Source: Malacoraja senta
Lineage: Eukaryota
Direction of reading: 5' to 3'
Assembly: GCA_038087875.1 (NCBI GenBank)
Contig: JAXLNO010001567.1
Span: 1-64,000 of the forward strand
Length of the DNA stretch: 64,000 nt
How positions within the stretch are numbered: the first letter of the stretch is position 1; each line of letters starts with the position of its first letter. Shown in pieces: positions 53,201 through 56,200 of the stretch. The position numbers are program-made.

Positions 53201-56200
53201 TGCCTTACTTACCACTGACTCAATCTGCAAATGAACTATTTGGGAATCCTGCACTAGTACTCCCACTTTGTAGCTCAGGTTTCTCAATTCTCTCCCCATT
53301 TAGAAAATAGTCTATGTCTTTATTCCGACTGCCAAAATGTAAAACCAGACACTTGCTACACTGTATTCCATTTGGCTCTGCTTTGCCCACTCGGTGGAAC
53401 TGCTGCCTTACAGCGCCAGAGACCCGGTTCAATTCTGACTACGGGTCCCGTCTGTACAGAGTTTTGTACCTTCTCCCCGGGACTTGCGTGGGTTTTGCCT
53501 GGATCTCCGGTTTCCTCACTCAGTCCAAAGACATACAGGTTTGTAGGTTAATTGGCTTGGTATAATTGTAAATTGTCCCCTAATAAGTAAGATAATGTAA
53601 GTGTGCAGGGATCGCTGGTTGACGCAGACTCGGTGGGCTGAAGGGCCGGTTTCTGCGCTGTATCTCTTAAACTAAAACCACATTCCATTGACTATCAATA
53701 ATTATGAGCAATTAGATAACCACAAATTAATAATGGGTGGCACAGTGGCGTAGCGGTAGAGCTGCTGCCTTACTGCACCAGAGACCTGGGTTTGATCCTG
53801 ACTACAGGTGCTGTCTGCAAGGACATTGTATGTTCTCCCTGTGACTGCGTGGGTTTCCTCCCACACTACAAAGACATACAGGTTTGTAGGTTACTTGGCT
53901 TAGGTAAAATTGTAAATTGTCCGTACTGTGTAGGTTAGTGTAAATGTATGGGTTGATCACTATTCAGCGAGGACTCAGTGAGCTGAGGGGCCTGTATCTG
54001 CAGCATATCTCTAAAGCCTAAAGTCTAAATCCACAGCTTAGTTAAGAGTGTGAGTTGAGACTGTTATCTCAGTCCAGGAGGTTTATGGTCTCAAGTGATC
54101 AGCCTCATTAACTTGCCACTTACCCTGTGGAACATTGACTCCCTGCAGCAGAGTTGCATGTTCGATGTAACAGGAGAATTTTGCCACATCTTCTCTATTC
54201 AGTTGAATTGTATTCTTCAGCTGGTAAGTCCCATCCCAATTGGGCAACAGATCACTGGATTCAGACTCATGGACCCCCTCACCATCTCTCAGCCACGTTA
54301 CATCGATGGCCCGTGGCTAGAAGCCTGTGACAAGGCAGGAGAGTATCAGTGATTGCGACCCATCACGTTTAATCCCAATAAACACCTCAGGGGTTTCTGC
54401 AAGTGTAAGAAGAGTCAGAATCAGTGAAGACATGAACAAAAGCCTTCAATTGTAAGATCACTGCAACTCACCACTTTCCCAATCAGAGTTTTTTCTCTGG
54501 CTGAACTAAGTTTTCAGCCTAGACCCAAAATGCTGGAATAACTCAGCAGGTCAGGCAGCATTCTGGAGAGAAGGAATGCCCAGAGATGCTATCTGACCCA
54601 CTGAGTTACACCAACATCTTCTATCTTCAGTGTAAACCATCATCTGCAGTTCTATCTTGCACAAAGTTTACAGCCTTTTCTCTTTTCATTTTGCATTTCT
54701 GGCAAAACAACAAAACATTTAGCTTTAATATCACTGACATGCTCCTTATCTTAGCTCCAGACTTTAACTGACAGCACAGATGAAAGGGGAATGCAGGCCC
54801 AATGGAGGAGTATAACTCACCATTGGGATTGATACTGTAGACATGATTGCTTCTACCTGTTCATGAATCTCTGCTGAATAATAACACTAAATATTCCAAG
54901 AGGGAATGGGAGGAAGAAGTTCTTCAAATAGAGAACTGTTGGAAATTGAATGTCACCATCCCAAGGAGTAATAGAGGCAAATAGAGAATCTGATTGGGTT
55001 TCTGATCAGTTCAGCAACAGACCCTTCAGGCCACAAGGTCGGTGCTAAACATAAGACCAAGATACATATTCCTCCATTTCCTGAATATCTATATGACTGT
55101 GGATAAAGGACACTGGTACAATATTTATCTTTCACTTGCACTTCCTACCCACTGGCTCCATCTAAGAGGCACGTTGCCAGACAATTTACTGATACCCACG
55201 TTGTAGAACAGGGTGGCGAAGCAGTGGAGCTACTGCCTTACAGCGCCAGAGACCTGGGTTTGTTACTAACTACGGGTGCTTGTCTTTACAGAGTTTGTAC
55301 GTTCTCCCTGTGACCTGCGTGGGTTTTATCCGAGATCTTCGGTTTCCCCTCACACTCGAAAGACGTACAAATTTGTAGGTTAATTGGATTGGTATAAATG
55401 CAAATTGTCCCTAGTGTGTGTAGGATAGTGTTAGTGTGCGGGCATGGCTGCTCGGTGCGGTCTCGGTGGGTTTCCGCGCTGTATCTCTAAACTAAACTAA
55501 ATAATTACTCAAGTGACAGCCTGAAGTGCATGATATTTCCCACCTGATCTATCCAGAGGATATCCTCTGGCCCATCAGTCAGAGTGCCTACGTCGTGTAC
55601 CTCTCCTCTGTAGTGCTTCTTGTCCACACTCCAGATATATCCGCAGCCACTTCACACAGTCCTTCTCCAGGAGATCTTTAAAATACTTGTTCATGAAGGT
55701 GTTGACGTTCCACCGATCTGCTAGCATCTGGAAATCTGGACGTAGTGCAATCCAGCGCATTCTGTCCTTGTCAAAAGCACAGGCATCCTCCCCATCATAA
55801 CCCAGTCTGAAAAACCCATCAGTGGAATTGTCACTGTCCACTTCACAGCCGCAGAAACCCTGCACAAAGCAAACAGCTGGGGCTGAGGTAGGGGTGGAGG
55901 ATTTGTGTTGGGGAGAGTGGATGGAAGGGAGAGGCAATTTACAAATCAGTTCTCAGCATGGTACAAACAGGCATAACAGAACACAACATGGAGCTGTACA
56001 GCACAGGAGCAGGTTTAGCTCAGAGATACAGCGCGGAAACAGGCCCTTCGGCCCACCGAGTCCGCACCGACCAGTGGTCCCCGCATATTAACACTATCCT
56101 ACACAGACTACTTTTCTTTTCCAGCTTTCTCCACTCTACCCCATCACTCTAAATGGTCCTGGTCTCATATGTTTTCTGTCCATTTGTCCACAGCATGCTG

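What the first reader, a model, noticed from the sequence alone, without database searches (positions are those of the whole stretch)
54124..54396. Single TAG in the alpha3 GFYP motif: null allele or route to an alpha3-less class I molecule
The invariant Tyr codon is TAG (54317-54319), yet the leader, alpha1, alpha2, TM, tail, splice sites and promoter all look intact. The exon is symmetric (phase 1-1, 273 nt), so skipping it gives an in-frame alpha1-alpha2-TM-tail protein. That architecture is established for EPCR and ULBP/RAE1. The alternatives are a recent pseudogene, a polymorphic null, or a base-calling error.
Basis: partly seen in the sequence, partly recalled or inferred. Interest (0 to 1): 0.65.

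Follow-up and report, generated by a model that had tools for sequence, protein, structure and literature searches.

The report
Stop codon in skate MHC-Ib gene
A skate copy of an old, conserved non-classical MHC class I gene carries one stop codon in place of a conserved tyrosine in its third domain, which most likely makes it an ordinary null allele or very young pseudogene.

Summary
On the minus strand, 54396-54124 is a 273-nt, phase 1-1 Ig C1-set exon (Pfam 2.6e-15) that reads G-F-TAG-P at 54319-54317. All 13 elasmobranch relatives I retrieved have Tyr at that site. The rest of the gene is intact: leader (61868-61817), alpha1, alpha2 and TM/tail, with GT-AG at every intron and 266 stop-free codons.

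The window is not human. The closest protein is a little skate model, 89-93% identical per extracellular exon. The gene belongs to a conserved elasmobranch class Ib lineage that NCBI labels "MR1-like". It is possibly one of the CD1-like UFA/UGA lineages, but I could not verify that name.

I found no excess of lineage-specific replacements (11 against 9 in the skate relative). The alpha3 end branch is the shortest of the three skate rows. The power of these tests is low.

The best reading is a genuine recent nonsense mutation, either a null allele or a young pseudogene. The transcript should be sensitive to nonsense-mediated decay, because the TAG lies 193 nt upstream of the last junction. A base-call error cannot be excluded without reads.

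The alpha3-less product is arithmetically in frame, but that holds for class I genes generally. The alpha3 splice sites are strong and the exon is conserved. Nothing here supports that route, and only RNA data could test it.

Exons were searched one at a time.

The parts
54317..54319 (-). Premature stop codon TAG replacing the Tyr of the G-F-Y-P motif. It is codon 26 of the whole codons of the alpha3 exon.
   Evidence: Tyr is present in 13 of 13 relatives.
54124..54396 (-). alpha3 exon: Ig C1-set, 273 nt, phase 1-1. Both Ig cysteines are present (LSCLV, FSCYI).
   Evidence: Pfam C1-set 2.6e-15. 79/89 identical to little skate P0001. Splice sites.
55601..55876 (-). alpha2 exon, 276 nt, phase 1-1, with the Cys pair (GFCGCEV ... 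EKDCVKW). Acceptor ccccag|CT.
   Evidence: Pfam MHC_I 4.9e-16. 85/91 identical to P0001..
57621..57881 (-). alpha1 exon, 261 nt, phase 1-1.
   Evidence: Pfam MHC_I 5.7e-5, below the curated cutoff on its own. 79/86 identical to P0001. PDB 9ch4_A 1.2e-21..
61817..61868 (-). Leader exon: ATG at 61868, 17 codons plus 1 base, donor CTG|gtaagc.
   Evidence: Found by a scan for ATG plus a phase-1 donor. Read. 13/17 identical to the leader of P0007, and also close to those of P0009 and P0010.
46058..46278 (-). Connecting peptide, transmembrane segment and cytoplasmic tail in one exon, ending in TGA at 46060-46058. It has a 9-nt in-frame gap relative to other batoids (ERT---TMKHN).
   Evidence: 61/72 identical to P0001.
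61909..62041 (-). Promoter-like motifs upstream of the leader: TGACG (62037), ATTGG (62011), CCAAT (61976), a TATA-like site (61946) and an Inr-like site (61909). This is descriptive only. A short upstream ORF starts at 61927.
   Evidence: No conservation test was possible.
45482..45487 (-). First poly(A)-signal hexamer downstream of the stop codon; a candidate 3' end.
   Evidence: a pattern scan only.
47108..48051 (+). Degenerate Tc1/mariner transposase inside the 7.8-kb intron between alpha3 and the TM exon. It is not part of the gene product.
   Evidence: HTH_Tnp_Tc3_2 4.4e-26 and DDE_3 6.8e-11, in two different frames.

Best explanation
[quoted passage not shown] It belongs to a lineage conserved across sharks and rays, and the genome is that of a skate.

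A single base change has turned the conserved Tyr codon of the alpha3 G-F-Y-P motif into TAG. The full-length reading therefore stops after about 25 residues of alpha3, before the Ig fold and the membrane anchor. The stop lies 193 nt upstream of the last exon junction, so the mRNA should also be a target of nonsense-mediated decay. The copy in this assembly is therefore a null.

It is either a null allele segregating in the species or a pseudogene that died very recently. Whether it is polymorphic or fixed, and whether another intact copy exists elsewhere in the genome, cannot be told from this window.

Shown here: the stop codon, the intact remainder of the gene, its orthology, and the lack of extra decay. 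Inferred: nonsense-mediated decay, loss of function, and recency.
For: 1. TAG at 54319-54317 lies in an exon that is otherwise a good C1-set domain.
2. Tyr is present at that site in 13 of 13 relatives.
3. The other exons are open, aligned without frameshift to the relatives, and all introns are GT-AG.
4. The leader is 13/17 identical to a sawshark ortholog.
5. Per-exon identity to little skate P0001 is 79/86, 85/91, 79/89 and 61/72.
6. Per-exon trees put the window with the two little skate rows (100/100 for alpha3, 99/98 for alpha2) and split batoids from sharks as in the species tree.
7. Replacements unique to the window against unique to P0001 are 11 against 9 over the four exons (binomial p 0.82).
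8. The window's alpha3 end branch is 0.035, against 0.092 and 0.12 for the two little skate rows.
9. The only indel is in frame, 9 nt.
10. The stop is 193 nt upstream of the alpha3 donor. The 50-55 nt rule for nonsense-mediated decay is established knowledge.
Against: - No reads were available, so a base-call error is not excluded.
- The rate test has little power. If the window's branch had evolved twice as fast, 11 or fewer of 20 would still occur with P 0.19; at three times as fast, P 0.04.
- With 11 neutral missense changes only 0.63 nonsense changes are expected. A longer period of relaxed constraint is therefore not ruled out.
- The window's end branches in alpha1 (0.063 against 0.022) and alpha2 (0.052 against 0) are somewhat longer than those of P0001.
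- One window-specific change hits a site where all 10 other rows that cover it have Phe (LAFYY to LASYY in alpha1). This hints at some relaxation, or at functional change.
- No ortholog DNA was available, so dN/dS could not be computed.
Confidence: 0.8

Rival explanations
1. Assembly or base-calling error: the animal's real codon is TAC or TAT and the gene is intact.
For: Everything else about the gene looks functional. A single substitution separates TAG from either Tyr codon. The MHC of skates is hard to assemble: PMC10751288 (passages read) says that key MHC genes of one skate assembly sat on unplaced scaffolds.
Against: Substitution errors are rare in polished assemblies compared with real variants (general knowledge). 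Only 4.2% of possible single-base changes in these exons give a stop, so a random error landing as a stop in this gene is a small target. Null alleles of class Ib genes are common (general knowledge; the HLA-G null alleles in PMC3021195).
Confidence: 0.1
2. The TAG allele is functional through skipping of the alpha3 exon. It would give a membrane-anchored alpha1-alpha2-TM-tail molecule with an EPCR/ULBP-like architecture, either as a maintained allele or as a step towards a new gene type.
For: The exon is symmetric (273 nt, phase 1-1) and the flanking phases match. Skipping would remove the stop and escape nonsense-mediated decay. There is a human precedent: the HLA-G4 isoform lacks alpha3, and the G*01:05N allele, which has a stop in exon 4, still yields the isoforms that lack the affected exons and is found in healthy homozygotes (PMC3021195, passages). 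A bamboo shark model (P0012, 'isoform X2') starts alpha3 at G-F-Y-P, so variant splicing around this exon has been predicted in the lineage.
Against: Phase symmetry is the general layout of class I genes and so carries no weight. The alpha3 donor AGG|gtaagt is near consensus and the acceptor has a good pyrimidine tract. The alpha3 sequence shows no sign of decay, which one would expect if it had long been unused. The internal acceptor used by P0012 would still include the TAG in the window (my reading). No alpha3-less relative was among the 12 proteins with E <= 1e-8 that the alpha2 search returned from 22 candidates. Stability of this platform without alpha3 or beta2-microglobulin is unknown.
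Confidence: 0.04
3. This is a redundant duplicate decaying after a skate-specific duplication. An intact paralog elsewhere does the job, and this copy is the dying one.
For: Little skate has two models on different contigs. P0001 looks intact apart from a missing leader. P0006 lacks alpha1 and half of alpha2, has a one-residue gap and S-P in place of the conserved F-S before the second Ig Cys, and carries translated intron pieces that match the window's introns at 56570-56641 (20/24) and 54439-54498 (13/20). By my reading of the alignment, the window shares H-E-S and R with P0006 in alpha3, where P0001 differs.
Against: The three skate rows form an unresolved trichotomy in alpha3. In alpha2 the two little skate rows share V where the window has F, which points the other way. 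P0001 and P0006 may be haplotigs or poor models. Only one copy lies in this 64-kb window, and the rest of the genome was not available. This rival is a special case of the best explanation, so its confidence is counted inside the 0.8.
Confidence: 0.2
4. The stop is bypassed, either by translational readthrough of UAG-C or by A-to-I editing of UAG to UIG (read as Trp), so that some full-length protein is made.
For: The base after the stop is C, the leakiest context in eukaryotes (recalled knowledge). Near-cognate decoding of UAG can insert Tyr (recalled).
Against: There is no known readthrough motif downstream: the sequence reads TAG CCA CGG. None of the 3 inverted-repeat pairs found within 52800-55600 covers the site. 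The exon's predicted fold is unremarkable (z -1.23; 20 of 200 shuffles fold as well). Basal readthrough is well below 1% (recalled).
Confidence: 0.01

Closest known systems
Conserved elasmobranch class Ib lineage, annotated by NCBI as 'MHC class I-related gene protein-like'. Relatives retrieved: P0001 and P0006 Leucoraja erinacea, P0002 Pristis pectinata, P0004 Hypanus sabinus, P0005 Mobula birostris, and P0003, P0007 to P0013 from sharks.
   Same: The exon layout is the same. The leader is 13/17 identical. Invariant blocks such as AGFHG and MNKYFK-LLEKDCVKWL are shared. Per-exon trees follow the species tree.
   Different: The window alone has a stop at the G-F-Y-P Tyr. It also has Ser for the invariant Phe in LAFYY and a 9-nt in-frame gap in the tail.
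[quoted passage not shown] The nearest solved structure is PDB 9ch4_A.
   Same: 9ch4_A is the best PDB match for alpha1 (1.2e-21) and, among chains that are not fused to beta2-microglobulin, for alpha3 (2.4e-20); the overall top alpha3 row, 9qwj_B at 1.4e-20, is such a fusion. It is also the best match for a full-length ortholog (1.8e-70). A sister lineage of the 9ch4 type (P0021, P0022, P0027; 38-45% identical to P0010) shares NHG, AGFHG and MN-YFK-LL-DC. That pattern would fit two related lineages.
   Different: No sequence labelled UFA or UGA was available to me. The PDB chain is named only 'Ig-like domain-containing protein', and no paper citing 9CH4 as a structure or 8GM8 was found. The name is therefore a guess. 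Lipid binding was not tested.
Mammalian MR1
   Same: MR1 chains are the best PDB matches for the alpha2 exon (9e-17), and the second-best group for a full-length ortholog (about 182 bits, against 174 for carp class I). That explains the NCBI label.
   Different: The position aligned to MR1's ligand-capturing Lys43 is Thr in P0010 and Ala in the window (my reading). The role of Lys43 is recalled knowledge. 9ch4_A scores far higher than MR1 (241 bits). Orthology to MR1 is not shown.
HLA-G*01:05N and HLA-G4: a null allele with a stop in exon 4, and an isoform lacking alpha3
   Same: A class Ib gene with a premature stop in the alpha3 exon, in which exon-skipped isoforms could still be in frame (PMC3021195, passages).
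   Different: In HLA-G the skipped isoforms are documented transcripts, and the lesion is a frameshift in exon 3. Here no transcript data exist.
EPCR, ULBP/RAET1 and RAE-1: class I-like molecules without alpha3
   Same: Only the hypothetical skipped product would share their alpha1-alpha2 plus anchor architecture.
   Different: Those genes have no alpha3 exon at all (recalled knowledge). Here the exon is present, conserved and flanked by strong splice sites.

Membership tests
MHC class I heavy chain | alpha1 and alpha2 domains matching the class I profile (PF00129) | tested here: met
   alpha2 exon E 4.9e-16, 59.3 bits (cutoff 28.3). The alpha1 exon alone gives E 5.7e-5, 23.2 bits, below the cutoff, but matches PDB class I chains at 1.2e-21.
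MHC class I heavy chain | Membrane-proximal Ig C1-set domain with an intact G-F-Y-P and the Cys pair | tested here: not met
   The C1-set profile is met (2.6e-15) and both Cys are present, but the Tyr codon is TAG. The domain cannot be translated intact from this copy.
MHC class I heavy chain | Exon layout leader / alpha1 / alpha2 / alpha3 / TM, with phase-1 boundaries and GT-AG introns | tested here: met
   Exon lengths are 52, 261, 276, 273 and 221 nt; all sites are canonical.
MHC class I heavy chain | alpha2 intradomain disulfide and a transmembrane anchor | tested here: met
   The Cys in GFCGCEV and in EKDCVKW are invariant in the 7-sequence alignment A1 of relatives. The hydrophobic stretch IVTGAVIVPLILLGIILGIGCW is followed by KKRKKRK.
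Classical, peptide-presenting class Ia | Conserved residues that hold the peptide termini (Tyr7, Tyr59, Thr143, Lys146, Trp147, Tyr159, Tyr171; numbering recalled) | tested here: not met
   The Tyr of the Y-W pair is His in the window (DHW against carp DYW, alignment) and in all full-length relatives. The remaining positions were read by eye only.
Conserved elasmobranch class Ib lineage (NCBI 'MR1-like') | Closest relatives are one lineage whose tree follows the species tree, with shared leader and signature blocks | tested here: met
   searches; leader; invariant columns; per-exon trees; batoid and shark clades starred.
UFA/UGA (CD1-like elasmobranch class Ib) | Sequence identity to named UFA or UGA genes | not testable with these tools
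   No named sequence was seen. The founding papers were not held. Cluster names were unavailable. Supplements are closed.
UFA/UGA (CD1-like elasmobranch class Ib) | Lipid-binding hydrophobic groove | not tested
   The only model made (ortholog P0007, 7-row alignment) was poor, mean pLDDT 41.4, so no groove analysis or fold search was done.
UFA/UGA (CD1-like elasmobranch class Ib) | Single or low copy number, linked to the MHC | tested here: inconclusive
   One copy lies in the 64-kb window. No other host gene was recognised in the window, so linkage cannot be judged.
MR1 | Lys43 that forms the Schiff base with the ligand (recalled) | tested here: not met
   The aligned residue is Thr in P0010 and Ala in the window's alpha1.
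alpha3-less class I-like molecules (EPCR, ULBP, RAE-1) | No alpha3 exon in the gene | tested here: not met
   The alpha3 exon is present, 79/89 identical to the intact skate relative, and has strong splice sites.
Null allele rescued by exon skipping (HLA-G*01:05N type) | Documented stable transcripts that lack the exon carrying the stop | not testable with these tools
   No transcript or read data are on hand.

The most novel reading that the evidence does not exclude
The TAG allele is kept in the population because its main product is an exon-4-skipped, beta2-microglobulin-independent alpha1-alpha2-TM molecule from a CD1-like (UFA/UGA-type) lineage. That would be an EPCR-like architecture caught at its origin in a cartilaginous fish.
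Probability: 0.03. Interest if true: 0.65.

Novelty: new member of a known kind. Interest (0 to 1): 0.22.

Why it matters
If the stop is real, one skate haplotype or species has lost a class Ib gene that is otherwise kept from sevengill sharks to manta rays. That makes it a natural knockout of a lineage whose function is still unpublished and may be CD1-like lipid presentation. It would interest comparative immunologists modestly: it tells them where to look for dispensability or for a compensating paralog. For genome annotation, the locus should be flagged as a null or pseudogene with a single lesion. It should not be discarded, and it should not be 'corrected'. The alpha3-less idea would matter more, as a snapshot of how EPCR- or ULBP-type molecules arise, but nothing here supports it beyond arithmetic.

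Tried and rejected
- Structure of the family. AlphaFold2 on ortholog P0007 with a 7-row alignment gave mean pLDDT 41.4 and pTM 0.34, which is too poor. No fold search was run and no second model was made. I did not deepen the alignment with the unnamed class I hits, because their origin is unknown.
- Naming the lineage. Searches for 9CH4 gave 18 papers; the 10 listed were all irrelevant. Searches for 8GM8 gave 0 papers. UFA + shark + CD1 + MHC, UDA + elasmobranch and a structure search gave only the two passages cited. Almeida 2020 and 2021 were not held. Cluster names were switched off.
- Skate class I pseudogenes in print. One search returned 7 papers, none relevant by title or abstract.
- dN/dS. 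This was not possible: no vertebrate DNA collection is on hand, only proteins. I replaced it with a protein-level relative-rate count and per-exon trees, both of low power.
- Intron against exon divergence, using the intron pieces translated in P0006. There were 11/44 differences in the intron pieces against 18/136 in coding sequence, Fisher p 0.096. This is suggestive only.
- A second or alternative alpha3 exon in the window. None was found: tblastn with 5 orthologs gave one hit region per exon.
- Editing or readthrough. None of the 3 inverted-repeat pairs found in 52800-55600 covers the site, and the exon fold is ordinary.
- Promoter. Only short motifs were seen. There was no ISRE or kappaB match in 61869-62400.
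- MR1 identity. Rejected on the Lys43 position.
- Joined model. The joined CDS or protein of the window's gene, and the joined skipped isoform, were deliberately not built, searched or folded.
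Full report
**What is in the sequence.** The finding lies on the minus strand. Read that way, 54396-54124 is a 273-nt exon. It is preceded by cttacacttgcag and followed by gtaagtgg. In phase 1 it reads TPEVFIGIKRDGSQSLILSCLVTGF*PRAIDVTWLRDGEGVHESESSDLLPNWDGTYQLKNTIQLNREDVAKFSCYIEHATLLQGVNVPQ. The stop is TAG at 54319-54317. With X at the stop, the exon is a clear Ig C1-set domain (PF07654, E 2.6e-15, 57 bits). The window holds no N.

**The whole gene.** I located all exons and treated each on its own.
- Leader, 61868-61817. It has an ATG, 17 codons plus one base, and the donor CTG|gtaagc.
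- alpha1, 57881-57621.
- alpha2, 55876-55601. The true acceptor is ccccag|CT, 16 nt upstream of a later AG that would not keep the frame.
- alpha3, 54396-54124.
- One exon for connecting peptide, transmembrane segment and tail, 46278-46058, ending in TGA.

The lengths are 52, 261, 276, 273 and 221 nt, and every intron is GT-AG. Outside alpha3 there are 266 whole codons without a stop, for which a random sequence has P about 3e-6. Pfam calls alpha2 MHC_I at 4.9e-16. It calls alpha1 MHC_I at 5.7e-5, which is below the curated cutoff on its own.

**Whose gene it is.** I do not take the window for human. The alpha1 exon's nearest protein is a little skate (Leucoraja erinacea) model, P0001, at 93% by BLASTP. 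Sawfish, smooth-hound, stingray and manta follow. The alpha3 and alpha2 searches added a second little skate model (P0006), sawshark, basking shark, sevengill shark, catshark, bamboo shark and epaulette shark. NCBI names all of them 'MHC class I-related gene protein-like'. The rest of the window is mostly transposable elements typical of such genomes.

The identities to P0001 are as follows:

| Exon | Identical to P0001 |
|---|---|
| alpha1 | 79/86 |
| alpha2 | 85/91 |
| alpha3 | 79/89 |
| TM/tail | 61/72 |

The leader I had found by scanning is 13/17 identical to the leader of the sawshark protein P0007. That settles exon 1. Per-exon maximum-likelihood trees put the window with the two little skate rows (100/100 in alpha3, 99/98 in alpha2). 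They separate batoids from sharks, as expected of one orthologous lineage. In that script a row was dropped if it covered under 45% of an exon; this removed only PristiophB, from the alpha2 tree.

**The stop against its relatives.** At the TAG site, 13 of 13 relatives have Tyr. So do the sister-lineage proteins P0021, P0022 and P0027 and the nearest solved structure. The lesion is therefore a change in this copy. It is not a feature of the lineage.

**How old is the lesion?** No ortholog DNA was available, so dN/dS could not be computed. I used three weaker measures.
- Using the other four species as outgroups, replacements unique to the window number 3+2+3+3 = 11. Those unique to P0001 number 2+1+3+3 = 9. 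A binomial test gives p 0.82.
- In the alpha3 tree the window has the shortest end branch of the three skate rows: 0.035 against 0.092 and 0.12. In alpha1 and alpha2 its branch is somewhat longer than that of P0001: 0.063 against 0.022, and 0.052 against 0.
- The only indel is a 9-nt in-frame gap in the tail.

These results fit a recent event, but the power is low. A twofold faster window branch would still give 11 or fewer of 20 with P 0.19. Eleven neutral missense changes predict only 0.63 nonsense changes. One window-specific change, Phe to Ser in LAFYY, hits a site where all 10 other rows that cover it have Phe. That may hint at some relaxation.

**Consequences, inferred.** Translation of the full-length message stops after about 25 residues of alpha3. 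That is before the Ig fold is complete and before the anchor. The TAG lies 193 nt upstream of the alpha3 donor. By the 50-55 nt rule the message should be degraded by nonsense-mediated decay.

I also looked for ways the stop might be bypassed.
- Readthrough. No known readthrough context follows the stop; the sequence reads TAG CCA CGG.
- A-to-I editing. None of the 3 inverted-repeat pairs found within 52800-55600 covers the site. The exon's predicted fold is ordinary (z -1.23).

**The alpha3-less idea.** Skipping the exon is in frame: alpha2 ends in G and the TM exon starts with AG. But this symmetry is the general layout of class I genes, so it is not evidence.

Against the idea:
- The alpha3 splice sites are strong.
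- The exon shows no decay.
- The alpha2 search returned 12 proteins with E <= 1e-8 from 22 candidates, and none lacks alpha3 altogether.
- One of them, the bamboo shark 'isoform X2' (P0012), starts alpha3 at G-F-Y-P through an internal acceptor. The same acceptor exists in the window (tgtcacag|GC) but would keep the TAG.

For the idea, as a precedent only: HLA-G4 lacks alpha3. The HLA-G*01:05N allele, which has a stop in exon 4, still makes the isoforms that lack the affected exons and occurs in healthy homozygotes (PMC3021195, passages read).

I did not build, search or fold the joined full-length or skipped sequence. So neither the fold nor the stability of a skipped product was examined.

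**A possible duplicate.** Little skate has two models on separate contigs. P0006 lacks alpha1 and the second half of alpha2, and it has a damaged alpha3. It also contains translated intron pieces that match the window's introns: 20/24 at 56570-56641 and 13/20 at 54439-54498. The window shares a few alpha3 residues with P0006, but in alpha2 the two little skate rows agree against the window. The trichotomy is unresolved. So the window might be the decaying member of a skate duplicate pair. Alternatively, P0001 and P0006 might be haplotigs or poor models. This cannot be settled here.

**What lineage?** The best solved relative is PDB 9ch4_A.

| Query | E-value to 9ch4_A |
|---|---|
| alpha1 exon | 1.2e-21 |
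| alpha3 exon | 2.4e-20 |
| Full-length ortholog P0010 | 1.8e-70 |

For alpha3 it ranks second, just behind a beta2-microglobulin-CD1c fusion chain (9qwj_B, 1.4e-20). That chain's score adds a match to the fused beta2-microglobulin domain.

An exhaustive search with P0010 found 2862 class I-type proteins at E <= 1e-3. The nearest other lineage, at 38-45% identity (P0021, P0022, P0027), is clearly of the 9ch4 type.

Two papers say that sharks and rays have single- or low-copy, MHC-linked, CD1-like class Ib genes named UFA and UGA, with unpublished crystal structures and bound lipids (PMC10751288, passages; PMC12562908, passages). Two related lineages, one of them with a recent unnamed structure, would fit that description. 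The window's gene may therefore be one of the pair. I saw no named sequence, so this is only a lead.

MR1 is the best PDB match for alpha2, and that explains NCBI's label. But the residue aligned to MR1's Lys43 is Thr or Ala here. The gene is not classical either: the Tyr of the Y-W pair in alpha1 is His throughout the lineage.

**Verdict.** The most likely reading (about 0.8) is a genuine, recent nonsense mutation. It makes this copy a null allele or a young pseudogene of a conserved elasmobranch class Ib gene. A base-call error (about 0.1) needs reads to exclude. A functional alpha3-skipped product (about 0.04) and readthrough or editing (about 0.01) remain speculative.

**Not checked.**
- Reads, population data and transcripts.
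- Ortholog DNA, and the rest of this genome.
- Cluster names, the two founding papers and all supplementary files.
- The closed contig collections were not needed for this question.

Noticed in passing
window 47108-48051 (+): Degenerate Tc1/mariner transposase inside the 7.8-kb intron between alpha3 and the TM exon. The HTH_Tnp_Tc3_2 (4.4e-26) and DDE_3 (6.8e-11) parts are in different frames.
   Followed up: partly
window 11810-13258 (-), 26216-27040 (+); similar ORFs at 1463-1837, 19494-19988 and 52011-52310: Several copies of a retroelement ORF with a weak GIY-YIG match (E 5.7e-4 and 2.6e-4, just under the curated cutoff). These look like Penelope-like elements. The first copy explains the GC-rich, strongly GC-skewed stretch at 12001-14000.
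   Followed up: partly
window 379-1434 (+); related tails at 7437-8225, 34738-35121, 37442-37954 and 63722-64000: LINE-type reverse transcriptase (RVT_1, 4.9e-14) and many copies of its C-terminal region. An ORF at 24624-25055 (-) hits Pfam ALKBH8_N (6.5e-11). I take that hit to be part of a retroelement and not a host gene.
   Followed up: partly
window 53311-53565, 53720-53938, 55107-55313, 58206-58478; also 23315-23689, 28325-28627 and 41746-42138: A short repeated module seen as similar stop-to-stop ORFs (…AVELLPYSARDLGLILTTGAVC…SPCDCVGF…), in both orientations and including the introns of the class I gene. It is probably a SINE. No family was assigned.
   Followed up: no
window 61927-61871 (-): A short upstream ORF (ATG at 61927, 18 codons, TAA two bases before the leader ATG). 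Whether it lies in the 5' UTR depends on the unknown transcription start.
   Followed up: no
P0006 (little skate) against window 56570-56641 and 54439-54498: A public gene model of the second little skate copy includes translated intron sequence and skips half of alpha2, so that model is unreliable or the copy is damaged.
   Followed up: partly
Models P0002, P0003, P0004, P0005, P0008, P0011, P0012, P0013: Most public models of this lineage lack the true leader. They start at internal Met or carry unrelated N-termini. Only P0007, P0009 and P0010 carry the MLL-TLLN leader that the window also encodes about 3.9 kb upstream of alpha1. The long first intron seems to defeat automatic annotation.
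   Followed up: partly
window 46115-46125 (-), cytoplasmic tail: A 9-nt in-frame gap relative to the other batoids (T-A/V-V-T reduced to T). It would fit slippage between repeated Thr codons. No Tyr-based sorting motif is visible in the tail.
   Followed up: no
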